Of a DNA stretch of 64,000 nucleotides, positions 55,103-64,000 are shown one piece after another. The stretch comes from Clostridium sp. (GTDB lineage: Bacteria; Bacillota; Clostridia; Lachnospirales; Lachnospiraceae). The notes below the pieces were generated by a model, which was given only the letters and a program-made list of their open reading frames with translations, did no database searches and was not told the DNA's origin. Each line of letters begins with the position of its first letter. Within the stretch, counting starts at the first letter, position 1. The stretch covers positions 62,227 through 126,226 of the forward strand of contig JAETQD010000010.1 of assembly GCA_021770825.1 (NCBI GenBank), written 5' to 3'. The translations under genes were made by a program, and so were the position numbers.

Positions 55103-58090
55103 TTATTTAGCGGTTACCTTTTTCAAAGCGGTGGGATTGCCCATCCACCGCTCCATGCAGTTCAGCAGCAGCTCGACATTCAATGGTTTCGTCAGATGTT
55201 CATTCATCCCCACCATTTTACTGCGCTTGATGTCTTCTACAAAAGCGTCCGCCGTCATGGCAATAATCGAAATTTCCGATGCATCTCTCCGGTCAAGATT
55301 CCGGATTGCAGACGCTGCATCATATCCATTCATGACCGGCATCTGAATATCCATAAAAATCAGGTCATAGTAGTTCTCGCCCATCTGCTCAAATCGCTCC
55401 ACGGCTTCCCGGCCATTGGACACACTCTCCACAATAACGCCGGTCTGACCGATCAGCTCCTCCGCAATCTCCTGGTTCAATTCATTATCTTCCGCCAGGA
55501 GAACGCGTCTTCCCTGCAATTTCTTTTCCGCTATAAGATTCCCACCGCGCTTTTTCGGGATTTTATCCTCTCCGACAATCTGATTAAACAAATATACCAG
55601 CCTGGACTTAAAAAGTGGTTTTGAGATAAAACCATTGACTCCGGCACTGCGGGCTTCCTCCTCCACGCTGCTCCAATCATAAGCTGACAGAATAATAATC
55701 GGAACATCCGGACCAACCTTCTTGCGGATTGCTCTGGCAGTCTCAATCCCATCCATCTCCGGCATCTTCCAATCCAAAATTACGGCAAAAAAGTCTTCCC
55801 CTGCCTGATGCTGTTCCCAAACTCTCCTCACAGCATCTTTGCCGCACAGTACATATTCTCCCTTCATGCCGATATTTTCCAGAATCAGGCAAGTCATCTC
55901 ACTTGCCTCCTGATCATCGTCCGCAACCAGTATCGGCAGGTCCAGTAAATGTTCCGTACACGGTTCTGCAGTATCCGCAAGCCGGAAAAACAGCGATACT
56001 GAAAATTGTGTTCCTTTTCCAATCTCACTTTCCACTGTAATATCGCCATTCATCCTTCGGGCAATATTTCTCGCAATGGTCATTCCCAGACTGGTTCCTT
56101 CTATCTTACTGATCCGCGAATCCTCCGCCCGGCTGAAGGGCTCAAACATTCTTTCCTGGTATTCCCGGCTCATACCGATTCCCGTATCCCGGAAAACAAA
56201 CTCATATCTGCCATATCCATAGGTGTTTGAATGCTTTTCCGTAATATCCATATCAATTCTTCCGCCTGAAGGAGTGTACTTTACGGCATTGCTCAGTATA
56301 TTCATAAAAATCTGCTGCAGCCTCATAGAATCACCGATCACGCACTCATGCGTGACATTTCCGATATGCACAGAAAATTCATGGTTCTTCTCCTCCATGG
56401 ACGGCCGGATCATCGTTACCAGATTTCCAATCAGATCAAACAGATTGATTTCCTCTTCCGCAAGATCAATTTTTCCGGATTCTATCTTGCTCATATCAAG
56501 GACCTCGTTAATCAGCGACAGAAGATGTCTGCTGGATACGGTAATCTTCCCAAGACAATCCTCCACGCGGTCCCTGTCATCCAGATATTTTCCTGCAATG
56601 GCAGTCATACCAATAATCGCATTCATTGGTGTTCTGATATCATGGCTCATTCGCGACATGAACTCACTCTTGGCCGCGTTTGCATGATTAGCCGCCTCAC
56701 AGGCTTCCTTGAGAGCCTGATGTTCCTTTTCTTCCTTCAATTTGCTGTCTGTCACGTCCTGGGCAACGTACAGGGCACGCTTCGGTCTACCGTCATAAGT
56801 CGTCTCAGCCAGTATAATGGTCGCACGGATCCATGCTTTTTCTGTATCCCTGTCGGTCTGTTTCCTGTATTCAATAGCAGTCAGAGGCTGTTCGCTGCTC
56901 AGCATTTTAAGAAGCTTCGGGTACGCAATATGATCCAGATACGCCTCCTGGTCATCCGGGTGAACAAAGCACTTTGCATACATCTGGATTCCCTGTTCGT
57001 AATTTCTCTCATCTCCCAGGACGCTGCCAACTTCCGCCTTCTGCGTGATCGGCCGAAATGTGTTCTTTTCCAGATCAATATAGTAGGTTGCAAAAAACAT
57101 ACTGCTGAGACAGCTGATGATCGATCTCTTTTCCATCGAATCCCTGAGGGCATGCTCCTCCGCAAGCTTTTCTTTTGTGATATCACGGCCCAGTATGTTG
57201 ACATTGATATCGGTTCCCTGCCGTATGTATAATATATGCTCTTCCGTCCACAGGATCGGATTTCCTTTGTGGCGGTATTGTACGACTTCTTCTTTAAATT
57301 CCTGTACACCGGCAGCATTCTCCCGGAGCTTATCAAACGATAAGGCATTCCAGAACCGCTCTTTGTCCGCATCCACCACCGCATTCTCCAAAGCCTGACG
57401 GATATAAATGGAGTAATCGCCGACCACTGCTCTGTCGGAATCGGTCTTTCTCAGATAAAGGCGTTCACACAATCCCGTTTCCAGATCAACTGTGTTCAAA
57501 ATGCTGTAACCTGATTTTATAATAGCAGCCATCCTTTTATCATTCCGGGACTGCCTCATATCCTTCTTCGTCTGCTCATCTACGTCCTGAAATGCCAGAA
57601 TCACATACGGATCGCCATTATACTTCTCCTTAAAATGGGCAGTTACCAAAACATACCGCCATTGCCCCTGTACCAAGGCCCTGCATACCAGTGTCTTCTT
57701 TTCTCCTGCCTTCCATGCCGTCCGCATCCCTTCCATGGAGAACATATTACTATACATTTCCCGGTCTTCTGATGCGATATAACGAATTCCTCTGTTAAAA
57801 AAGCTGCTGTCCCAAAGAAAAATATCCGACTGGAAAGTCTCTTTGACTAACGGTGTTGTCCGAACGATACTGACACCGCCGGTACTTAAATCCACAACAT
57901 AAACAGCGAAATTGTCTTCTCCAAGCGCATTGATGATTTCCTGATTGCGGATATTGATTTCTTCTCTTTCCAGGCCCTCAATCAGAATGTCATGTACATC
58001 CTTCAAATAAACCATGACACTTTGATTATCATCCGCATAATCAAAGGCCGGAACAATCTCCAGGGTATGCCAGCGAAATCTGTCCCCCAT
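55103..58090 (-). CDS. Soluble hybrid sensor histidine kinase with a ~470-aa N-terminal sensory region (PAS-like), HisKA, HATPase and two C-terminal REC domains
   Basis: HisKA SHDIRTPMNAIIGM. HATPase DTGIGM…GTSLGM. REC1 ILVADDDQ…DWKMPEMDG. REC2 VLLAEDNELN…DIQMPVMNG. No TM segments. Visibly more AT-rich than the upstream core. Confidence 0.85.
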   Translation of the reverse strand: MGDRFRWHTLEIVPAFDYADDNQSVMVYLKDVHDILIEGLEREEINIRNQEIINALGEDNFAVYVVDLSTGGVSIVRTTPLVKETFQSDIFLWDSSFFNRGIRYIASEDREMYSNMFSMEGMRTAWKAGEKKTLVCRALVQGQWRYVLVTAHFKEKYNGDPYVILAFQDVDEQTKKDMRQSRNDKRMAAIIKSGYSILNTVDLETGLCERLYLRKTDSDRAVVGDYSIYIRQALENAVVDADKERFWNALSFDKLRENAAGVQEFKEEVVQYRHKGNPILWTEEHILYIRQGTDINVNILGRDITKEKLAEEHALRDSMEKRSIISCLSSMFFATYYIDLEKNTFRPITQKAEVGSVLGDERNYEQGIQMYAKCFVHPDDQEAYLDHIAYPKLLKMLSSEQPLTAIEYRKQTDRDTEKAWIRATIILAETTYDGRPKRALYVAQDVTDSKLKEEKEHQALKEACEAANHANAAKSEFMSRMSHDIRTPMNAIIGMTAIAGKYLDDRDRVEDCLGKITVSSRHLLSLINEVLDMSKIESGKIDLAEEEINLFDLIGNLVTMIRPSMEEKNHEFSVHIGNVTHECVIGDSMRLQQIFMNILSNAVKYTPSGGRIDMDITEKHSNTYGYGRYEFVFRDTGIGMSREYQERMFEPFSRAEDSRISKIEGTSLGMTIARNIARRMNGDITVESEIGKGTQFSVSLFFRLADTAEPCTEHLLDLPILVADDDQEASEMTCLILENIGMKGEYVLCGKDAVRRVWEQHQAGEDFFAVILDWKMPEMDGIETARAIRKKVGPDVPIIILSAYDWSSVEEEARSAGVNGFISKPLFKSRLVYLFNQIVGEDKIPKKRGGNLIAEKKLQGRRVLLAEDNELNQEIAEELIGQTGVIVESVSNGREAVERFEQMGENYYDLIFMDIQMPVMNGYDAASAIRNLDRRDASEISIIAMTADAFVEDIKRSKMVGMNEHLTKPLNVELLLNCMERWMGNPTALKKVTAK

Positions 58091-58141
58091 TTTTCGCCGG
58101 TACGAACAGGTCAGGACTTTTGTCCCCTTTTTAAACTCCTT

Positions 58142-58820
58142 CTACAGCTTCGATATCTGTATAAAATGGAGATATCGCTCCAAATCCTCCTTATAGATAT
58201 ATTTCCGGCTGGCAATTCCTTCCATCCACGCAGAAAACGAATCCATATACTCTCTCATATCCAGCATTTCCGCTTCATCCACGTTGATGATGTCAAACGT
58301 ATCGCTGCTTAAGTTGGCCCGCAGCACTTTGTGATATACCTGATTCGACACCTCCGCGTGCGGCGTTACTGTGATCAAAAAAGCGAGAATCTCATCTTCC
58401 CAACAGATTCTCGTTGCAGCAATCTCCACGGCCTTTCCGAAGGGATCATCATAACTGAACGAACGGGCCTTATCCCCGTTGCCAATATAGAGCAATGGAC
58501 AGTTCCCGCATGTTCCTTTCCATAGCTCATGACAGACCATACCTATTTGTATGTTCGGTGCCACATCTTTTACCCGCTTGTTATAATATAAAATCAAGTT
58601 TTAAAAGTTTGTTATATGTTAAATACAGGATCTTTTTATCTTGAGGTATCAACTCACACAAATACTGAATTGCTGTAGTTTTTCCGCTTCCTATACATGC
58701 CTCCACAAGAATATTCCCACCTTTTAGAGCAAATTCAATGAACTCTCTTTGCTCTTCAGACAAGCTGAATTCACTATTTCTTATCTTCATGTGTTCATAC
58801 CCCCCCTCTTTCGCTATCAA
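58142..58820 (-). pseudogene. Frameshifted and 3'-truncated UvrD/PcrA-like helicase remnant (N-terminal ~225 aa only)
   Basis: The 58820-58581 fragment carries Walker A (NILVEACIGSGKTTAI). A +1 frame at about 58590 continues with IGMVCHELW (motif Ib-like TFHSFC) and FDIINVDEAEML (motif II-like). A stop follows about 40 aa later and motifs III-VI are absent. Confidence 0.5.
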
Positions 58821-59152
58821 TCAACATTTCTAAGCATTCCTTAAATCTCCCATCATGCTCTTACGTAGCACTCTTGCTTCGTTCATAAATGTCTGCCGAA
58901 CATCTTTTAATAAATCAATGTAATTTTTTCGTTTAAAACATCAAGCTCATTACTGCCATACAGCACTTCCTACTTGCCGAAAAAGTATTCTTACACCCAA
59001 AAATATTTCTTCACTTTAGGCTGCCTATCCCCCTAGGTAAATCAATTCCCTCATACCCATTCTACGGAAACTTAAAACACACATCCATATTTGCCCCAAA
59101 TCACCCAACCGCTTTGATTTAGCGGGCTTTCCTCGACAGCAGAGCGACTGTC

Positions 59153-59254
59153 TCAACATGTGTGGTTACCGCAGTTGAAACACATATCCTCTGCCTCGTG
59201 TCCTGAAAAAGAACACATATCGTTATCATTCAACAAGTCGTGATTATCGCTCAT
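59153..59254 (-). CDS. Small Cys-rich ORF (33 aa) immediately downstream of the recombinase, not in the ORF track
   Basis: Perfect AGGAGG 9 nt upstream. Translates to MSDNHDLLNDNDMCSFSGHEAEDMCFNCGNHTC (C-x10-C-x2-C-x4-C). Begins 24 nt after the recombinase stop. Confidence 0.3.
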   Translation of the reverse strand: MSDNHDLLNDNDMCSFSGHEAEDMCFNCGNHTC

Positions 59255-59277
59255 TTTAAAGCTCCTCCTTGTTGTTT

Positions 59278-60969
59278 TTATACTGCCTGCTTATGAAGAT
59301 TTTTGTACCTGTCCTTTGCATGCGGCACACTACAGTCATCCATACCCTTTAATACAAAAGTAAGCTTGTATGGGTCAGTACTGCCATCCTCTGCAATCTC
59401 TCCGACAATCACCTTCTCCACAATGCTTTCAAATACCAGTCTGTCAAATTCATCCGTCACATCGGCATTCTTAAGCTTTGCTCTAATGATTTTCATACGG
59501 CTTGCAATATTCTTTTGGGACATAGCATTCTCGGAAAACAACAGCTTTTCTTCCTCACACTTGTCCAGTTTGTGATTCAATTCACTGTATTTTTCTTCAT
59601 AAGCCTCTTTAGAAATTTTATCATCCAGATACATGTCGGTCAATTTCTTTCTCTTTTTTTCAAGAGTCGAAATTTCCTTCTCCACCCGCTTTAGCTTCTC
59701 AGTGCTGTCATCCTTTGAAATAGCAGCTTCCAATGATGAAAGCACCGATTCCAGCACATCATCAAAATTCTCAGCCAGTAGCCGAAACATCTCCAGAAAT
59801 GCATTCTCTATGATAACCTCATCAATTGCCTTGCTGTGCGGACAGTTTTCAATTCCTTTATTGGCTGCTGTCCTGCATTTCCATACAGGCTTTTTATGCT
59901 GTGTATCCTGATGATGGGAACGCCTTGTAAGATTCGTTCCACAGAAACCACACTGACACATACTGCTGAATGCGTACTTCCTTGCAAACTTGGTTCTTGC
60001 CCCATCGGACACATTCTCATTGGTACGATATCTACTCTCGCGAATCTCCTGTGCCTTGTTCCATATTTCCTCCGAAATAATGGGCTCATGATGGTTCCTT
60101 GTATAATATTTATTGGATTCCCCACGATTATCAAGCCGCCTCTTGGAAATCGGATCAACGGTATAAGTCTTACCCATAAGCAGGGCGCCCTTATACTTCT
60201 CATTCTTTAGAATGCCCCGGATACCGCTATCCGTCCACTTAACCTCGCCCTTCTTATTCACTTTGCCCCGCCTCGTAAGTTCCTTGGCAATGGTATAAGC
60301 ACCATATCCCTGCACATACAAATCAAAAATCATATGGACTGTCTCAGCCTCTTTTTCATTGATGGTAATGCTTTTGTCTTCCGGGTGATAATCATATCCG
60401 AGACAACCATTGAACCCCATCAGCTCCCCTCTGGACATCTTCATCTGAACGCCCAGGGAAACATTCTGTGACAGAGATTCCACCTCATTCTGCGCCAGTG
60501 CTGATAGAAGTGATAACTGCATTTCACTCTCCATGGTGGAAGTGTCAATATTTTCTTTCTCAAATATGACTGTCACTCCCTTTGCCTTCAACATTCTTGT
60601 ATAAGAAAGCACATCCACAAGATTTCTCGAAAATCTGGATACCGACTTGGTAATGACAATATCCACCAGACCGTTCATACAGTCATCAATCATGCGCAAA
60701 AACTCATCTCTCTTGGTGGTCTTAGTTCCCGTTATGCCCTCGTCCGCATAAATGCCTACAAGCGCCCACTCCTTATTTGCAGAAATTTTGTCCTGATAAT
60801 ACTCCTTCTGAGACTTAAAACTCTGCAACTGCTCCTCTGCATTTGTACTGACACGCACATATGCCGCCACTCGTTTTCTTGTGATGGTAAGTGGCTTCCC
60901 CACCAGTCTTCGGTCCCTGATAACAGGACCTTCAACTTTCTTAATTACTTCTACTTGTCTTTCTTCCAT
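59278..60969 (-). CDS. Large serine recombinase (resolvase/invertase catalytic domain, recombinase domain, zinc ribbon, coiled-coil)
   Basis: N-terminal catalytic domain AAYVRVSTNAEEQLQSFKSQKEYY (Ser nucleophile). Recombinase domain. Zn ribbon C…CGFCG…C. Long C-terminal coiled coil. 563 aa. Confidence 0.9.
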   Translation of the reverse strand: MEERQVEVIKKVEGPVIRDRRLVGKPLTITRKRVAAYVRVSTNAEEQLQSFKSQKEYYQDKISANKEWALVGIYADEGITGTKTTKRDEFLRMIDDCMNGLVDIVITKSVSRFSRNLVDVLSYTRMLKAKGVTVIFEKENIDTSTMESEMQLSLLSALAQNEVESLSQNVSLGVQMKMSRGELMGFNGCLGYDYHPEDKSITINEKEAETVHMIFDLYVQGYGAYTIAKELTRRGKVNKKGEVKWTDSGIRGILKNEKYKGALLMGKTYTVDPISKRRLDNRGESNKYYTRNHHEPIISEEIWNKAQEIRESRYRTNENVSDGARTKFARKYAFSSMCQCGFCGTNLTRRSHHQDTQHKKPVWKCRTAANKGIENCPHSKAIDEVIIENAFLEMFRLLAENFDDVLESVLSSLEAAISKDDSTEKLKRVEKEISTLEKKRKKLTDMYLDDKISKEAYEEKYSELNHKLDKCEEEKLLFSENAMSQKNIASRMKIIRAKLKNADVTDEFDRLVFESIVEKVIVGEIAEDGSTDPYKLTFVLKGMDDCSVPHAKDRYKNLHKQAV

Positions 60970-61078
60970 GCAAAAACTCCTTTCAAAAATCTGTCTGTAT
61001 ACGTTAAGTAGGCAGCAACAAAATATCTGCTACTGCCTACACTATAAATCATAATGAAAATGTTAACGAATGTGCGGA

Positions 61079-61222
61079 TTATGCAGTCATAAAACTGATA
61101 ACATCATATTCGCCCATAATATGAATTCTTGTTCTGTTGTACTCATCTTCCGTAATCAGTCCCTTACGAAAAATCCATCCCAACACCGCAAGCTTCTTAC
61201 TCAACTCCAGCTCCTTCGTCAT
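61079..61222 (-). CDS. Small ORF (47 aa) upstream of the recombinase on the same strand. Hypothetical, possibly a recombination directionality factor or XkdX-like.
   Basis: Translates to MTKELELSKKLAVLGWIFRKGLITEDEYNRTRIHIMGEYDVISFMTA. AGAGGGG about 6 nt before ATG. Not in the ORF track. Confidence 0.3.
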   Translation of the reverse strand: MTKELELSKKLAVLGWIFRKGLITEDEYNRTRIHIMGEYDVISFMTA

Positions 61223-61417
61223 AAGCTAACACCCCTCTTTCCTAATAATCTGACTTATCACCTTCTTTCTGCATAAATGCTGTGATAATACACGAATTGC
61301 TGATAAGATAAAGTTCTTTTGGCTTCCATTCGTATCCTATGCCGTCAGCGTTACAGCTGACCTTTAGCTCATTGCCTGCGGGCTACTCCTGCTCGAGTTC
61401 CTTTCCCACCTTTATTC

Positions 61418-61437
61418 AAGAATGCCTCGGCATTCTT
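61418..61437. repeat. Perfect 20-bp palindrome AAGAATGCC-TC-GGCATTCTT (9-bp arms around a non-palindromic TC dinucleotide)
   Basis: Read directly from the sequence. No T-run follows on either strand, so it is not a classic terminator. Confidence 0.6.
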
Positions 61438-61439
61438 GT

Positions 61440-61524
61440 GGCAAAACGCACACCGTGTGTAACACGGTAATTTCCTTGTGCGTTTCTGCCATCCGCCGGA
61501 GGCTTCTTTATGTGAATAAAGAAG
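61440..61524. repeat. Nested inverted repeats. 13-bp arms GGCAAAACGCACA/TGTGCGTTTCTGCC enclose a CCGTG-tgtaa-CACGG hairpin. A perfect 9-bp stem CTTCTTTAT-gtga-ATAAAGAAG (GNRA-like loop) follows.
   Basis: Read directly from the sequence. Together with the palindrome they fill the divergent intergenic region between the recombinase operon and the STAND gene. Confidence 0.5.
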
Positions 61525-61645
61525 TGTCTTCCCTCGCTCCTCCTAACTTCTCAGTTCTCCTCGCAAGGTCTGTTGGCATAAGATACAGCTCATGAATCCG
61601 TTTCCGGATTGTTTATCAAGGTTCAAAATACAAAAAGATTTAGTA

Positions 61646-61672
61646 GAACATTTGTTCTTTTTGTGTTATAAT
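61646..61672 (+). promoter_or_regulatory. Extended -10 promoter (TGtTATAAT) with an overlapping LexA/Cheo box GAACATTTGTTC, upstream of the STAND gene
   Basis: tagtaGAACATTTGTTCtttttgTGtTATAATc. GAAC-N4-GTTC is the Firmicutes LexA operator core. The -10 is consensus with a TG extension, about 110 nt upstream of the ORF. Confidence 0.5.
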
Positions 61673-61781
61673 CTTCTTGTAGCCAAGCCATTTCTCTCAT
61701 GGCTTCTGGTGGCTACGTTTTCATGGGTTAATGATACGAAATTTTGTCTTGGATTATCATTGACGGAAAGTTGACCGGAAG

Positions 61782-63845
61782 TTGACGAAAAAGTTAGGAA
61801 GTGATGAATTGCAGAACCGCATTACCTTCTCCAACGTAATCGGAGTGTTATTGGAAAATAAAAAGAAAACTTATGCACAGTACCAGATGATTGAAGACAT
61901 CTTCTACGACTGCCTGGGCAACATGGATTTATTTGAAAAAGAGGATTTTGAAAAAAATGTTACCTACAGCAGATGGTGTACCGGAGAGCGCCCGATACCC
62001 AAGGAAATATTATCCTTTTATGACAATTGCGGATTTGACGGCATTCAGGATAATATTCAGGATGATGTAATTCCAAACCTTATCAATGTGCCAGCCACAA
62101 GGAAACTGCTTTTAGAATTGGTTATGGACAGTGTGGATGTAATTGGTACAAAAAAGGCGGATGAATTTGCCCAGATAACCGATGATGCAGAGCTTATCAC
62201 TGCCCTTATCCGCTACGCCATATTAAATGACCATGACAGCAGACACACCCTGTTATCACCTAATTTATCGGATATTCTTCTGAGTAACAAGCTTCCTTCT
62301 GTAAACCGCTATTTTCTCGGAAGAAAAGAGGAAATAAAGGTCGTTAGCAAAGCTTTGCAGGAAAACAATCTTGTATTTATCACCGGCACTGCCGGTATGG
62401 GTAAAAGTGAACTGGCAAAGGTCTATGCCAAAAAGAATGAAAAGAAATACACCAACATCATTCACTTATTTTACGATGGTGATTTAAAGAAATGTGTTGC
62501 TCAGATGGAATTTAGTGATGATACCGCGGACATGAGCGAAGATATGCTCCTAGACAGACATATGAAACTATTAAAAAAGCTCCACTCTGACAGTCTCATT
62601 ATCATTGACAACTTCAATGTTCTGCCAAAAGAGGATGCTTTCTTTAAGGAATTTATAAAAATGAACTGTAAGATACTGGTTACCAGCCGGTGCAATATCT
62701 CTCAGTTTAAGACGGTAAAAGTTTCTGAAATGGACGCAGATACAGAGCTTGTAGAACTGTTTTATAAGCATTGCCCTTCTGCAAAGAGTTCTGAAGATGT
62801 GGTAAAGGACATTATCCAGACGGTGGGCTGTCACACCCTTACTGTATGCCTGTCTGCATTATCCCTGACAGCCAGCGGCATGGAACCGGAAGAACTGCTT
62901 GCTGAACTGAGAACTTGTGGGCTGAATATCGCCTCCGGGGAAGATGTGGAACTGTATAAAGATGATGATTTTACTGACGGACTGATGATCGAGCATTTAC
63001 GCAAACTGTTACAACTTGGCAAATTGTCCAATCAGCAATTGGACATTCTTTGCAATCTGTCTCTGCTACCAGTTGCCGGCATATTAAAGAACAGCTTCAA
63101 GAACTGGATGAGACTTGATAACCTTGCGGATGTAAACCACCTTATTAAATACGGATTTATCAACGAAGATACAGATAACAAGAAAATCAGCCTGCATCCA
63201 CTGTTACAGGAAGTGATTTCCATTGAAACCATACCAACCATAACTGCCTGCCGGACTCTGCTTAATAGCCTCCACCTTGTCTGCCTGGCACATGGCTTGG
63301 AACTTCGCAGGCCGGAAAATATCATTGCTTCCCTTATCAGTGTATCAGAGCGCATTATAGTAGATGATGGTGCATATTTCTTACTGTTTTTACAGGATAT
63401 GTTCCCATATCTGGACAAATACCTTGTATCGGATTACCTGCCGAAACTAACTGATAGAATCAGCTATCTTATGGAAGAATACAAGCTGGAATCTCCATGT
63501 GACAGGGCATTGCTACTGGATTATAAGGCAGAGTGTTTTCTGTTGAAAAAGGATTACGCAAATGCAGTTAAGGAACGTGAAAAGGCAATCAACATCATGG
63601 AAAAGATGCATACAAAAGATGCAGATATGCGAACTGCAAACCTGCTATCCAATCTGTACAACAACCTTTCCAACACTTATCTGCTGATGAAGCGTGGAAA
63701 TGAGGCAGCCAATGCACTCCGTACAGCCTTTGATATCCGTATGGAATATACACACTTGGGACTTACCGAATCCCATGATTCCCTGCAACAGATGATGAAC
63801 CTTATCAATATACTGTTGCTGGCAAAGTATACGGTAAATAGCTAG
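61782..63845 (+). CDS. STAND-class NTPase with an N-terminal ~190-aa (possibly HTH-like) domain, an NB-ARC-like P-loop ATPase and C-terminal TPR-like helical repeats
   Basis: Walker A FITGTAGMGKSELAK. Walker B SLIIIDNFN. ILVTSRC (hhhTSR/TTR-like). GCHTLTV at the GxP position. C-terminal ~300 aa are helical repeats. WCTGERPIPKEIL resembles the XRE-HTH W-x-x-G-x-R-x-P pattern. The start is uncertain: TTG at 61782, or more likely TTG at about 61809 with AGGAAG 7 nt upstream. Confidence 0.8.
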   Translation: MTKKLGSDELQNRITFSNVIGVLLENKKKTYAQYQMIEDIFYDCLGNMDLFEKEDFEKNVTYSRWCTGERPIPKEILSFYDNCGFDGIQDNIQDDVIPNLINVPATRKLLLELVMDSVDVIGTKKADEFAQITDDAELITALIRYAILNDHDSRHTLLSPNLSDILLSNKLPSVNRYFLGRKEEIKVVSKALQENNLVFITGTAGMGKSELAKVYAKKNEKKYTNIIHLFYDGDLKKCVAQMEFSDDTADMSEDMLLDRHMKLLKKLHSDSLIIIDNFNVLPKEDAFFKEFIKMNCKILVTSRCNISQFKTVKVSEMDADTELVELFYKHCPSAKSSEDVVKDIIQTVGCHTLTVCLSALSLTASGMEPEELLAELRTCGLNIASGEDVELYKDDDFTDGLMIEHLRKLLQLGKLSNQQLDILCNLSLLPVAGILKNSFKNWMRLDNLADVNHLIKYGFINEDTDNKKISLHPLLQEVISIETIPTITACRTLLNSLHLVCLAHGLELRRPENIIASLISVSERIIVDDGAYFLLFLQDMFPYLDKYLVSDYLPKLTDRISYLMEEYKLESPCDRALLLDYKAECFLLKKDYANAVKEREKAINIMEKMHTKDADMRTANLLSNLYNNLSNTYLLMKRGNEAANALRTAFDIRMEYTHLGLTESHDSLQQMMNLINILLLAKYTVNS

Positions 63846-63920
63846 TACCGTGCCAGTTTCGCTAAAATCTGAGATAATCAACTTTGAAAAAACTAAGTTT
63901 TTATAGAGGAGGACTATCTC

Positions 63921-64000
63921 ATGGATAAATCAACCCATCAGATCCGGCGTGAACAATGGACTCAGATCATCAATAACTGCCTTGCCAGCGGCCAGTCTAA
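63921..64000 (+). CDS. 5' end of an ORF running off the window. Possibly an HTH-containing transposase or regulator N-terminus.
   Basis: AGAGGAGG ribosome-binding site, then ATG. Translates to MDKSTHQIRREQWTQIINNCLASGQS… Only 26 codons are visible. Confidence 0.25.
   Translation, partial: MDKSTHQIRREQWTQIINNCLASGQS

What the first reader, a model, noticed from the sequence alone, without database searches (positions are those of the whole stretch)
61280..61600. Cluster of perfect inverted repeats in the 500-bp divergent intergenic region
Three strong symmetric elements lie within about 110 bp. The first is a 20-bp perfect palindrome AAGAATGCC-TC-GGCATTCTT (61418-61437). The second is a 13-bp-arm inverted repeat around a 5-bp hairpin (61440-61490). 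The third is a 9-bp perfect stem with a GTGA loop (61503-61524). Serine-recombinase att and crossover sites are characteristically about 40-50 bp of dyad symmetry around a non-palindromic central dinucleotide, and the palindrome has TC at its centre. Alternatively the cluster is a structured leader or antisense RNA, or a set of stacked operators controlling the divergent recombinase and STAND promoters.
Basis: seen in the sequence. Interest (0 to 1): 0.5.

Follow-up and report, generated by a model that had tools for sequence, protein, structure and literature searches.

The report
Hairpin repeat inserted in recombinase leader RNA
The three inverted repeats are real, but they are not a recombination site: they form one small hairpin-rich repeat element sitting in a tolerant loop of a previously uncatalogued, strongly conserved structured RNA that precedes a serine-recombinase operon in gut Lachnospiraceae mobile elements.

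Summary
Two of only four perfect hairpins (arms of 9 bp or more) in the 64-kb window lie within about 110 bp here.

The att-site and operator readings fail. The whole cluster (about 61411-61520) is absent from elements whose recombinase is 97-98% identical. The element/host junction lies at about 59150, roughly 2.3 kb away.

The cluster is an insertion into the apical loop of helix P4 of a conserved RNA-like element of about 175 nt (window 61316-61595, minus strand). That element:
- has 28 of 40 base pairs with compensatory changes;
- has GNRA loops, and 75 G.U cells against 17 A.C cells, which places it on the minus strand;
- has no Rfam 15 match;
- was found in 48 loci, always upstream of and in the same sense as a large serine recombinase, usually with a SHOCT-like small ORF and a divergent STAND gene.

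As RNA the insert folds as a coaxial extension of P4 and leaves the core intact.

The insert belongs to a small dispersed family of modular repeats (palindrome, long hairpin, ATCC..CCGGAGGCT) found at four or more unrelated loci in gut viral-catalogue contigs.

The functions of both the RNA and the repeat are inferred, not shown. The most likely reading is a cis-acting leader carrying a largely neutral mobile hairpin element.

The parts
61316..61595 (-). Conserved structured RNA-like motif (core about 175 nt; 280 nt here because of the insert). Helices are P1, P2, P3/P3a, P4, P5/P5a, a variable P5b, and P6.
   Evidence: The covariance model R1 hits it at 179.6 bits over the full length. On 38 distinct sequences 95.1% of cells pair, 28 of 40 pairs show compensatory changes, and 0 of 500 shuffles reach this. 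On the MAFFT-only alignment the figure is 20 of 40 pairs. The unconstrained MFE fold reproduces the consensus, z = -7.5. G.U cells number 75 against 17 A.C cells, so the minus strand is the structured one.
61411..61520 (.). Segment absent from most relatives; this is the 'cluster of inverted repeats'. It replaces the 4-7-nt P4 loop (CTTGACG on the + strand) of the short form.
   Evidence: blastn homology jumps from 61413 to 61521 in more than 20 loci. Sequence comparison confirms it, as does the P4 table.
61416..61505 (.). Alternative minimal limits of the inserted element: modules A (IR1), B' (IR2) and C (ATCCGCCGGAGGCT). It is flanked by the 6-bp direct repeat CTTTAT at 61410-61415 and 61506-61511.
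   Evidence: The homologous A-B-C modules are aligned.
61417..61438 (.). IR1 / module A: the perfect palindrome CAAGAATGCC-TC-GGCATTCTTG.
   Evidence: The central 20 nt of IR1 (61418-61437) have 8 exact matches in IMG/VR, and TTCAAGAATGCCTCGGCATTCTTG (24 nt) is invariant in the five aligned copies: this window and four IMG/VR loci (L147, L150, L151, L152).
61440..61490 (.). IR2 / module B': a long hairpin with a 13-bp outer stem (one bulge), an inner 7-bp hairpin at 61452-61468, and a 3' bulge of about 8 nt.
   Evidence: It has the same architecture but a different sequence from module B of L147, L150, L151 and L152.
61503..61524 (.). IR3: CTTCTTTAT-GTGA-ATAAAGAAG. Its right arm belongs to the P4 helix and the conserved core, so it competes with the P4 pairing.
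61410..61418 (.). One arm of the extended P4 stem (CTTTATTCA). It pairs with 61513-61521 (TGAATAAAG).
   Evidence: repeat I14. It is used in the minus-strand MFE folds. L062 has the same CUUUAU/AUAAAG stem with a UUUCG loop.
61256..61269 (-). Conserved Shine-Dalgarno-like box GAAAGAAGGUGAUA. No start codon lies at SD distance.
   Evidence: Present 30-60 nt after P1 in 30 of 35 distinct loci (161 nt in L047, which carries an extra insert). Compare STAB-SD (PMC4113751).
61079..61222 (-). 47-aa SHOCT-like small ORF, the first gene after the RNA motif.
   Evidence: Ten of 12 homologues hit SHOCT_2 weakly (best E-value 7.6e-5).
59278..60969 (-). Large serine recombinase, 563 aa.
   Evidence: Pfam domains Resolvase, Recombinase and Zn_ribbon_recom. 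NCBIfam gives CcrB/CcrC/XisF-like matches below the cut-off.
59145..59170 (.). Junction between the element and flanking DNA; this is the att region actually used by the element.
   Evidence: The flanks of the window, L001, L002, L003, L004, L007, L008, L009, L012, L045, L082, L083 and L119 differ up to here, and the sequences are homologous from ...ACATGTGTGG onward.
61644..61672 (+). Promoter-like site for the STAND gene: TAGAAC, 17 nt, TGnTATAAT. The conserved palindrome AGAACATTTGTTCT (61645-61658) overlaps it.
   Evidence: Read from the sequence. Conserved in all lineages in the alignment.
61782..63845 (+). STAND NTPase/TPR gene, divergent from the RNA. In this window it is cut at 63827/63828.

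Best explanation
The three inverted repeats are one unit: a hairpin-rich accessory element of about 90-110 bp. It consists of palindrome A, long hairpin B' and the box ATCCGCCGGAGGCT.

It lies inside the apical loop of helix P4 of a conserved structured RNA of about 175 nt. That RNA is encoded on the minus strand, upstream of and in the same sense as a SHOCT-like small ORF and a large serine recombinase.

The element belongs to a small dispersed family of modular structured repeats of gut Firmicutes. It entered, or was recombined into, this RNA in one sub-lineage of the mobile element.

When the leader is transcribed, the insert folds as a long coaxial extension of P4 and leaves every conserved core position and helix intact. 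It is therefore tolerated and probably close to neutral.

The host RNA most likely acts in cis as a regulatory leader of the small-ORF/recombinase operon.

Shown: the presence/absence polymorphism, the position in P4, the covariation, strand and gene association of the RNA, related copies of the repeat at unrelated loci, and the location of the element/host junction elsewhere.

Inferred: transcription, the cis-regulatory role, mobility of the repeat, and its neutrality.
For: 1. Insertion polymorphism. In more than 20 loci homology runs 61000-61413 and resumes at 61521, with only about 4 nt between. The short form reads CCCACC-CTTGACG-GAAGTG. The short-form loci include L002, L004, L005 and L006, whose recombinase is 97-98% identical. 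The insert-bearing copies are the window, L001, L003, L045 and L118-L122. Five of them (the window, L001, L003, L045 and L119) were compared at the left junction and each has a different flank, so that variant still moves.

2. Host RNA.
- RNAalifold on a MAFFT alignment finds compensatory changes at 21 of 41 pairs.
- A fixed 40-pair structure gives 95.8% of cells paired and 20 covarying pairs on the MAFFT alignment. On the 38-sequence alignment it gives 95.1% and 28 pairs. In both cases 0 of 500 shuffles reach this, and slid controls pair 32-47% of cells.
- Loops are GNRA on the minus strand. G.U cells number 75 against 17 A.C cells.
- The covariance model gives 48 hits, one per locus, each in the same sense as the recombinase gene of its locus and upstream of it (checked against the mapped recombinase positions).
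- A motif-based (not recombinase-based) scan found L125. There the motif precedes three tandem recombinases only 21-26% identical to this one.
- No Rfam 15 family matches, even at E <= 10.

3. Position in P4. Short forms have a 2-3-bp P4 capped by GAAA, GCAA or GUCAA. The stem covaries (CC/GG, CCG/CGG, AC/GU). L062 has an extended CUUUAU-UUUCG-AUAAAG stem. The unconstrained MFE fold of 61316-61595 (minus) reproduces the consensus and stacks the insert on P4, z = -7.5.

4. Repeat family.
- The 20 nt at the centre of IR1 have 8 exact hits in IMG/VR.
- L146-L152 carry A, B, C and usually a further module D, with different flanks at four or more loci. One example is the carB / aroE-like spacer in L152.
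- An alignment of the window insert with four of them shows 24 invariant nt and the same B architecture with different stem sequences. The box ATCC-GCCGGAGGCT is shared with three of them; L150 ends at ATCCTA and lacks it.
Against: - The B' hairpin 20-mer occurs only at this locus: 0 hits in IMG/VR and 5 in the metagenome collection, all in the same context.
- No second copy of the insert exists in the 64-kb window or in about 1.2 Mb of related loci. High copy number, typical of MITEs, is therefore not shown.
- The nearest empty alleles have a different P4 sequence (CC-GUCAA-GG). The event was thus not a simple insertion into an observed allele. The 6-bp CTTTAT 'duplication' could be the remains of an L062-like stem.
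- No transposase was linked to the repeat.
- No transcription data were available. No clear promoter for the minus-strand RNA was found near 61600-61680; the only consensus hit lies at 61731-61760. No terminator-type expression platform follows the motif.
- The RNA co-occurs with the STAND gene at least as tightly as with the recombinase type. Its functional partner is therefore not settled.
Confidence: 0.72

Rival explanations
1. The insert is a lineage-specific functional expansion domain of the leader RNA. It might add a protein-binding rod, an alternative pairing (IR3 against P4) that switches the fold, or a pause/terminator hairpin. On this reading it is not a selfish or neutral repeat.
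For: - All stems are perfect, and the segment is 96-99% conserved in the nine copies.
- IR3 and the P4 stem are mutually exclusive pairings of the same bases.
- The inner hairpin followed by UGCGUUUU is flagged as terminator-like on the minus strand.
- L045 has a change that gives U.G on the minus strand but C.A on the plus strand.
Against: - It is absent from nearly all lineages of the RNA, including 97-98% identical elements.
- The nine copies are too similar to one another to show selection.
- Related A-B-C modules occur in unrelated intergenic regions, outside this RNA and in both orientations relative to neighbouring genes.
- The U-run is paired in the outer stem and is shortened in L001, L003 and L045.
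Confidence: 0.18
2. The palindromes arose in place by template switching or fold-back replication errors within an L062-like extended P4 hairpin. No mobile element was involved.
For: - The arms are perfect.
- AUAAAG/CTTTAT is duplicated at both borders.
- Other loci show independent perfect-stem hairpin insertions in the same intergenic region: L053/L049/L050, L047, L064 and L125.
Against: Template switching cannot explain 24 identical nucleotides, the same B architecture and the same C box at unrelated loci in other contigs.
Confidence: 0.08
3. The 22-bp palindrome is the att or crossover site (or a pseudo-att site) of the adjacent large serine recombinase.
For: It shows dyad symmetry around a non-palindromic TC dinucleotide, next to a recombinase operon.
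Against: - It is missing from elements with 97-98% identical recombinases.
- The homology breakpoints of 12 or more independently integrated copies lie at about 59150.
- The same palindrome occurs in loci with no such recombinase nearby, for example the carB / aroE-like spacer of L152.
- It is internal to the conserved element, which continues on both sides.
Confidence: 0.02
4. The cluster is a set of operators, or a cruciform, that controls the divergent STAND and recombinase promoters.
For: It lies in a divergent regulatory region, and palindromes are typical repressor sites.
Against: - It is not conserved among relatives that keep both genes and the rest of the region.
- The cluster lies 120-230 bp from the STAND promoter-like site.
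- Conserved operator-like elements exist elsewhere: 61645-61658 and 61760-61792.
Confidence: 0.04

Closest known systems
Small dispersed structured repeats of bacteria: BOX (boxA-boxB-boxC) and RUP of Streptococcus pneumoniae, REP/BIME of enterobacteria, Correia elements, and IS200/IS605-derived palindrome-associated elements (from general knowledge)
   Same: - Length around 100 bp, non-coding, and built from hairpin modules.
- Mosaic composition: modules A, B and C, with or without D. L150 has A and B only, and L149 has an extra hairpin.
- Related copies lie at unrelated intergenic sites.
- There is a presence/absence polymorphism at this site.
- The segment is bracketed by a short inverted repeat and a possible short direct repeat.
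   Different: - There is no sequence similarity to any of these families.
- Copy number per genome is unknown and looks low.
- The central hairpin is replaced by a different, compensated sequence rather than merely mutated.
- No cognate transposase was identified.
- This copy sits inside a structured RNA rather than in plain spacer DNA.
Palindromic element insertions into functional RNA or protein genes (Rickettsia palindromic elements; variable peripheral stems of RNase P RNA, cobalamin riboswitches and group I introns) (from general knowledge)
   Same: A self-folding insert lands in an apical loop, or extends it, so that the core fold survives. The host RNA shows other variable-length stems (P3a, P5b, P6).
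   Different: The host RNA here is itself uncharacterised, and tolerance is inferred only from continued mobility of the insert-bearing elements.
attP/attB sites of large serine recombinases (phiC31, Bxb1, SPbeta SprA; PMC12412911 for the SPbeta complex)
   Same: Dyad symmetry around a central dinucleotide, close to a large serine recombinase gene.
   Different: The palindrome is perfect and only 22 bp, is internal to the element, is absent from sister elements, and is present at loci without this recombinase. The real junction is at about 59150.
Riboswitch-type or other cis-acting 5' leaders, and the STAB-SD mRNA stabiliser of Bacillus thuringiensis cry3A (PMC4113751)
   Same: For the host RNA:
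- a multi-helix junction with invariant unpaired nucleotides;
- always upstream of and in the same sense as one gene class;
- followed by an extended SD-like box (GAAAGAAGGUGAUA) that has no start codon at SD distance, as in STAB-SD.
   Different: There is no Rfam family, no ligand, no recognisable terminator or antiterminator, and no transcript mapping. The SD-like box has one mismatch to the canonical GGAGG, and its role has not been tested.

Membership tests
Large-serine-recombinase att site | Lies at the boundary between the element and host DNA (attL/attR), or at the joined ends (attP) | tested here: not met
   Homology between copies with different flanks starts at about 59150, and the cluster is 2.3 kb inside the conserved element.
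Large-serine-recombinase att site | Conserved among elements that encode the same recombinase | tested here: not met
   Absent from L002, L004, L005 and L006, whose recombinases are 97-98% identical, and from all more distant relatives.
Large-serine-recombinase att site | About 40-50 bp of imperfect dyad symmetry around a non-palindromic central dinucleotide | tested here: inconclusive
   The palindrome is 22 bp and perfect, around TC. That is shorter and more perfect than known sites, and symmetry alone is not diagnostic.
Large-serine-recombinase att site | Strand exchange at the central dinucleotide | not testable with these tools
   This needs junction PCR or reads, or an in vitro recombination assay.
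Dispersed small repeat (MITE / BOX / REP-BIME-like) | Related copies at unrelated genomic sites | tested here: met
   A-B-C(-D) copies occur with four or more different flanks in IMG/VR contigs, plus this locus. Twenty-four nucleotides are invariant in the five aligned copies; the C box is present in three of the four IMG/VR copies in that alignment (L150 lacks it).
Dispersed small repeat (MITE / BOX / REP-BIME-like) | Presence/absence polymorphism at an otherwise identical site | tested here: met
   L005 has a scaffold gap exactly at the insertion point.
Dispersed small repeat (MITE / BOX / REP-BIME-like) | Terminal inverted repeats | tested here: inconclusive
   A 9-bp perfect repeat CTTTATTCA/TGAATAAAG brackets the segment. 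However, the same stem exists without the insert in L062, so it may belong to the host RNA.
Dispersed small repeat (MITE / BOX / REP-BIME-like) | Target-site duplication | tested here: inconclusive
   CTTTAT occurs at 61410 and 61506. The observed empty alleles have a different P4 sequence, so the pre-insertion site has not been seen.
Dispersed small repeat (MITE / BOX / REP-BIME-like) | Many copies within one genome | tested here: inconclusive
   There is no second copy in the 64-kb window or in 1.2 Mb of loci. The B' 20-mer occurs only at this locus in the metagenome collection. Whole genomes could not be scanned.
Dispersed small repeat (MITE / BOX / REP-BIME-like) | A cognate transposase that recognises the ends | not tested
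   No candidate was sought systematically.
Any Rfam 15 RNA family | Covariance-model match at or near the gathering score | tested here: not met
   Only chance-level hits at E up to 10 for the window region and for the short form L004. Nothing reached the gathering score for L145-L152.
Cis-regulatory leader / riboswitch-like RNA (host RNA) | Conserved secondary structure supported by covariation | tested here: met
Cis-regulatory leader / riboswitch-like RNA (host RNA) | Constant position upstream of and in the same sense as one class of genes | tested here: met
   All 48 hits are in the same sense as the recombinase gene of their locus and upstream of it where its position was mapped, including the divergent triple-recombinase locus L125.
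Cis-regulatory leader / riboswitch-like RNA (host RNA) | Expression platform (terminator/antiterminator, or an SD-sequestering helix) | tested here: inconclusive
   No terminator follows the motif. A conserved SD-like box with possible AUCAC partners is present, but the pairing is not proven.
Cis-regulatory leader / riboswitch-like RNA (host RNA) | Ligand or protein binding that changes gene expression | not testable with these tools
   This needs in-line probing or reporter assays.
Intrinsic terminator | G+C-rich hairpin directly followed by a U tract | tested here: not met
   IR1 and IR3 have no U tract. Only the inner IR2 hairpin is flagged on the minus strand, and its U-run is paired in the outer stem.

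The most novel reading that the evidence does not exclude
The structured RNA of about 175 nt (61316-61595, minus strand) is a new class of ligand- or protein-sensing leader, or a ribozyme. It would gate expression of a SHOCT-like protein and a large serine recombinase, and hence integration or excision of a family of Lachnospiraceae mobile elements. It may work together with the divergently encoded STAND NTPase. On this reading the hairpin repeat in P4 marks a naturally permissive site for engineering.
Probability: 0.25. Interest if true: 0.75.

Novelty: new member of a known kind. Interest (0 to 1): 0.5.

Why it matters
- Palindromes next to a recombinase gene are easily mistaken for att sites. 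Comparison with sister elements shows that this one is not, and it places the real junction about 2.3 kb away.
- The work exposes a strongly covarying RNA motif that is not in Rfam and is tied to large-serine-recombinase operons in abundant human and animal gut bacteria. It is a testable candidate for RNA-level control of mobile-element integration and excision.
- It shows a modular hairpin repeat family that can settle inside a functional RNA without destroying its fold. That bears on how structured RNAs acquire expansion segments. It also matters for annotation, because covariance models lose about 30 bits on such copies.

Tried and rejected
- Rfam scans found nothing relevant. They covered the region at E <= 1 and E <= 10, the whole window at the gathering score, the short form L004, L125 and L145-L152.
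- blastn of the intergenic region against phage and plasmid collections gave no match. The insert alone against plasmids gave one chance-level 33-nt hit. The L151 repeat against phages and plasmids gave one partial hit in an unannotated fecal phage record.
- A degenerate core pattern in IMG/VR gave 22 hits, but only the already known loci carry the motif. The rest scored 14 bits or less with the covariance model.
- I searched for a promoter for the minus-strand RNA just upstream of P1. There is no convincing -35/-10 pair, and the conserved TTGnAC does not keep its spacing to any -10 across lineages. The only consensus hit is ATGATA-18-TATCAT at 61760-61731.
- I tested a pseudoknot between the SD-like box and the core GACACUUCC, and between the box and the upstream GAACCUUGA. 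Both partners are invariant or are not maintained in L081, so this cannot be tested.
- A conserved upstream ORF after the SD-like box was rejected. The reading frames and start codons are not conserved.
- Literature searches for a described recombinase-associated RNA motif found none.
- The first working idea, that the insert is unique to this locus and therefore not a repeat, was revised after the IR1 scan.
Full report
**Observation.**
- IR1 is CAAGAATGCC-TC-GGCATTCTTG (61417-61438), 10-bp perfect arms.
- IR2 (61440-61490) has 13-bp outer arms with one bulge. They enclose a perfect 7-bp hairpin (61452-61468) and a 3' bulge of about 8 nt.
- IR3 is CTTCTTTAT-GTGA-ATAAAGAAG (61503-61524).
- A fourth, bracketing repeat was missed: CTTTATTCA (61410-61418) against TGAATAAAG (61513-61521).

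Only four perfect hairpins with arms of 9 bp or more exist in the whole 64-kb window, and two are here. Shuffles give 1.2 per 64 kb. The 119-nt segment folds with z close to -7 on either strand.

**Setting.**
- 59278-60969 (minus) encodes a 563-aa large serine recombinase with Resolvase, Recombinase and Zn_ribbon_recom domains.
- 61079-61222 (minus) encodes a 47-aa SHOCT-like protein.
- 61782-63845 (plus) encodes a STAND NTPase with TPR repeats.
- No Rfam family matches anywhere in 58000-64000 at E <= 1, or in 61200-61800 at E <= 10.

**The cluster is an insertion.** I fetched 117 loci through the recombinase protein and compared them by blastn.
- In more than 20 loci homology runs from 61000 to 61413 and resumes at 61521, with about four bases between.
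- The common form reads CCCACC-CTTGACG-GAAGTG. The window, L001, L003 and L045 read CCCACC-TTTATTCAAGAATGCC...GTGAATAAA-GAAGTG.
- The short form occurs in L002, L004, L005 and L006, whose recombinases are 97-98% identical to the window's, and in all more distant lineages.
- L005 has a scaffold gap exactly at this point, as expected if both alleles were present in that sample.

**Not an att site.**
- Among copies with different flanking DNA (the window, L001, L002, L003, L004, L007, L008, L009, L012, L045, L082, L083 and L119), homology begins at about 59150, some 130 bp past the recombinase stop codon. The sequence there reads ...(A)CCGTCTC(C/A)ACATGTGTGG.... That is the element/host junction.
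- The cluster lies 2.3 kb inside the conserved element.
- Five of the insert-bearing copies (the window, L001, L003, L045 and L119) were compared at that junction and each has a different flank, so that variant remains mobile.
- The same palindrome also occurs at loci that have no such recombinase (see the repeat family below).

The att reading and the operator reading both fail on conservation.

**What the insert sits in.** The surrounding non-coding DNA is more conserved than the recombinase. For example, 61318-61410 is 94-98% identical in loci whose recombinase is 56% identical.

A MAFFT alignment shows hairpins that keep their pairing through different sequences. Their loops are GNRA only on the minus strand: GAGA, GGAA, GCAA and GUAA, and U-GNRA-C in P6.
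- RNAalifold on 21 sequences predicts 41 pairs, 21 of them with compensatory changes.
- With a fixed 40-pair structure, the sequence-only alignment gives 95.8% of cells paired and 20 covarying pairs. No shuffle out of 500 reaches this. Slid controls give 2-7 covarying pairs and 32-45% of cells paired.
- On 38 distinct sequences aligned with covariance model R1, the figures are 95.1% and 28 of 40 pairs.
- G.U cells outnumber A.C cells 75 to 17, so the structured strand is the window's minus strand, the sense of the small ORF and recombinase.
- Model R1 finds one copy per locus in 48 loci, each in the same sense as that locus's recombinase gene and upstream of it where the gene's position was mapped. 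The window hit is 61316-61595 at 179.6 bits over the full length. There is no second copy in the window.

The architecture is as follows. P1 and P2 close a junction that carries P3/P3a (GNRA loop), a short P4, P5/P5a, a variable P5b and P6. The junction has long invariant single-stranded stretches: CAACAG, GGAGCGAGGGAAGACACUUC, GGGAAAGGAACUCGAGCAGGAGUAGCCC, CUAAAGG and ACGAAUGGAAGCCAAA.

A motif-based scan of IMG/VR, which does not depend on the recombinase, recovered the known contigs plus L125. In L125 the motif (91.9 bits) precedes a 62-aa ORF and three tandem serine recombinases only 21-26% identical to this one.

The motif co-occurs with the divergent STAND gene in 39 of 47 motif-bearing loci. 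The small ORF and recombinase occur without the motif in more than 20 loci.

About 30-60 nt after P1 (161 nt in L047, which has an extra insert), 30 of 35 distinct loci carry GAAAG(A/U)AGGUGAUA (window 61256-61269). This is an extended Shine-Dalgarno-like box with no start codon at SD distance. The true SD and ATG of the small ORF follow 9-19 nt later. It resembles the STAB-SD stabiliser (PMC4113751). That is a resemblance, not a test.

**Where the insert lies in the RNA.**
- In short forms P4 is a 2-3-bp stem capped by GAAA, GCAA or GUCAA, and it covaries (CC/GG, CCG/CGG, AC/GU).
- L062 has an extended P4, CUUUAU-UUUCG-AUAAAG.
- In the window the same CUUUAU...AUAAAG stem is lengthened to CUUUAUUCA/UGAAUAAAG and encloses the rest of the cluster.
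- The unconstrained minimum-energy fold of 61316-61595 (minus) reproduces the covariation-supported helices. It stacks the insert as one long branched rod on P4, z = -7.5. The short form L004 gives the same core.
- IR1 and IR3, taken as local hairpins, compete with this rod.

The core is untouched, which agrees with the continued mobility of insert-bearing elements.

**What the insert is.** My first searches suggested a unique sequence.
- There is no second copy in the window or the loci.
- The IR2 20-mer is absent from IMG/VR.
- It occurs five times in the metagenome collection, always at this same locus.

The 20 nt at the centre of IR1, however, have eight exact matches in IMG/VR. Seven of them (L146-L152) carry a modular element:
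- TTCAAGAATGCCTCGGCATTCTTG (module A);
- a long hairpin with an inner hairpin and a 3' bulge (module B);
- ATCCTGCCGGAGGCT (module C);
- usually a further composite hairpin of about 85 nt (module D).

These copies have four or more different flanks. Examples are the spacer between carB and an aroE-like gene in L152, a divergent spacer upstream of a response-regulator gene in L151, and a spacer between two same-strand ORFs in L147. L150 has A and B only. L149 has an extra hairpin between B and C. A scan for the C-D junction adds one more contig.

Aligned with four of these copies, the window's insert shares the 24 invariant nucleotides of A. It has the same B architecture with a different stem sequence. 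It shares ATCC-GCCGGAGGCT with three of the four; L150 ends at ATCCTA and lacks the box. None of these loci matches an Rfam family.

The cluster is therefore a member of a small, dispersed, mosaic family of structured repeats. In kind it is comparable to BOX, RUP, REP/BIME or palindrome-associated elements, with no sequence relation to them.

Its limits here are ambiguous. Either it is 61416-61505, flanked by the direct repeat CTTTAT (61410 and 61506), or it is 61411-61520 with a 9-bp terminal inverted repeat. The nearest empty alleles have a different P4. A simple insertion into an observed allele is therefore not demonstrated, and recombination with an L062-like P4 cannot be excluded.

Copy number per genome and the mobilising enzyme are unknown.

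**Mechanism.**
- Shown: the polymorphism, the position, the structure and strand of the host RNA, its gene association, the repeat family, and the junction elsewhere.
- Inferred: the RNA is transcribed as the leader of the small-ORF/recombinase operon and acts in cis. The insert is co-transcribed, folds on itself as a P4 extension, and is tolerated.

A functional role for the insert remains possible but has no comparative support. Candidates are an alternative pairing of IR3 against P4, or the terminator-like inner hairpin flagged.

**Other observations.**
- The STAND ORF is cut at 63827/63828 relative to all relatives. Unrelated DNA follows, and a new ORF starts at 63921.
- A 33-aa Cys-rich ORF (59153-59254, minus) ends exactly at the junction.
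- A conserved palindrome (61645-61658) overlaps a promoter-like site for STAND.
- Three 11-nt direct repeats lie at 61760-61792.
- A conserved box, CGCACATTCGTTAACATTT (61058-61076), together with a hairpin, precedes the recombinase gene.
- Several other lineages carry independent perfect-stem hairpin insertions in this intergenic region.

**Verdict.** The att-site reading is refuted and the operator reading is not supported. The 'structured leader' alternative is right for the region but not for the repeats themselves.

The cluster is a new member of a known kind: a small dispersed hairpin repeat. The more valuable result is its host, an uncatalogued, strongly covarying RNA motif tied to serine-recombinase operons of gut Lachnospiraceae mobile elements.

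Noticed in passing
window 61316-61595 (-); 48 loci, e.g. L004:3477-3653, L059:2654-2830, L083:383-578, L063:3450-3626, L125:7021-7214(-): A structured RNA motif of about 175 nt that is not in Rfam 15. Twenty-eight of 40 pairs covary and the loops are GNRA. It always lies upstream of and in the same sense as large serine recombinase genes, and 39 of 47 motif-bearing loci also have a divergent STAND gene.
   Followed up: yes
window 63827-64000: The STAND ORF is cut at 63827/63828 relative to all relatives, whose ORF continues GGATGTGGACAATGCC.... Unrelated DNA follows, and a new ORF starts at 63921 (MDKSTHQIRREQWTQIINNCLASGQS...) and runs off the window. This is probably another inserted element.
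   Followed up: partly
window 59145-59254: The element/host junction lies at about 59150-59160. A 33-aa Cys-rich ORF (59153-59254, minus) stops exactly there in the window and in L012. In L045, L007 and L083 it reads on into flanks that encode similar peptides (GDG(C/L)(F/S)..). This suggests integration into a conserved coding target.
   Followed up: partly
window 61256-61269 (-): An extended Shine-Dalgarno-like box, GAAAGAAGGUGAUA, is conserved in 30 of 35 distinct loci. It has no start codon at SD distance, resembles STAB-SD, and has possible AUCAC pairing partners in the linker or the core.
   Followed up: partly
window 61644-61672 and 61760-61792: A promoter-like site for STAND (TAGAAC, 17 nt, TGnTATAAT) is overlapped by the conserved palindrome AGAACATTTGTTCT (61645-61658). 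Three 11-nt direct repeats, TTGAC(G/C)G.AA., lie just before the STAND ribosome-binding site. A likelier start codon for STAND is the TTG at 61809.
   Followed up: partly
window 61058-61076 and 60975-61057: The conserved box CGCACATTCGTTAACATTT follows the small ORF. After it come a -10-like hexamer and a hairpin (GTAGGCAGTAGCAG...CTGCTGCCTAC) before the recombinase start codon. The arrangement is kept in all lineages with different hairpin sequences.
   Followed up: no
L053/L049/L050 (about 70 nt near the STAND promoter), L047 (about 140 nt after P1), L064 (about 200 nt between the small ORF and the recombinase), L125:6960-7010: Independent insertions of perfect-stem hairpins occur in the same regulatory region in other lineages. 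The L053 and L064 inserts share CTTGCAAGCAAG.
   Followed up: no
L152:5225-5505: In the carB / aroE-like spacer, a segment of about 255 bp that holds the repeat (modules D-C-B-A) and a terminator is flanked by a 14-20-nt direct repeat, GCATTCTTGAAAGT.GAAAA. This repeat includes half of palindrome A.
   Followed up: partly
L005:3460-3560: A scaffold gap of 100 N lies exactly at the insertion point, with a duplicated flank. This is consistent with both alleles being present in that metagenome.
   Followed up: no
L060:3472-3633; L014 and L015: There are natural deletions. L060 lacks the 3' part of the RNA (from CUAA to the SD-like box). L014 and L015 keep STAND and the recombinase with no detectable RNA motif.
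   Followed up: no
window 58142-58820 (-): Two short adjacent ORFs lie in the flank next to the junction. The 79-aa ORF has weak hits to P-loop helicase N-terminal domains (DEAD, UvrD, AAA_30); the adjoining 151-aa ORF matches no Pfam family. They may be the remnant of a disrupted gene.
   Followed up: no
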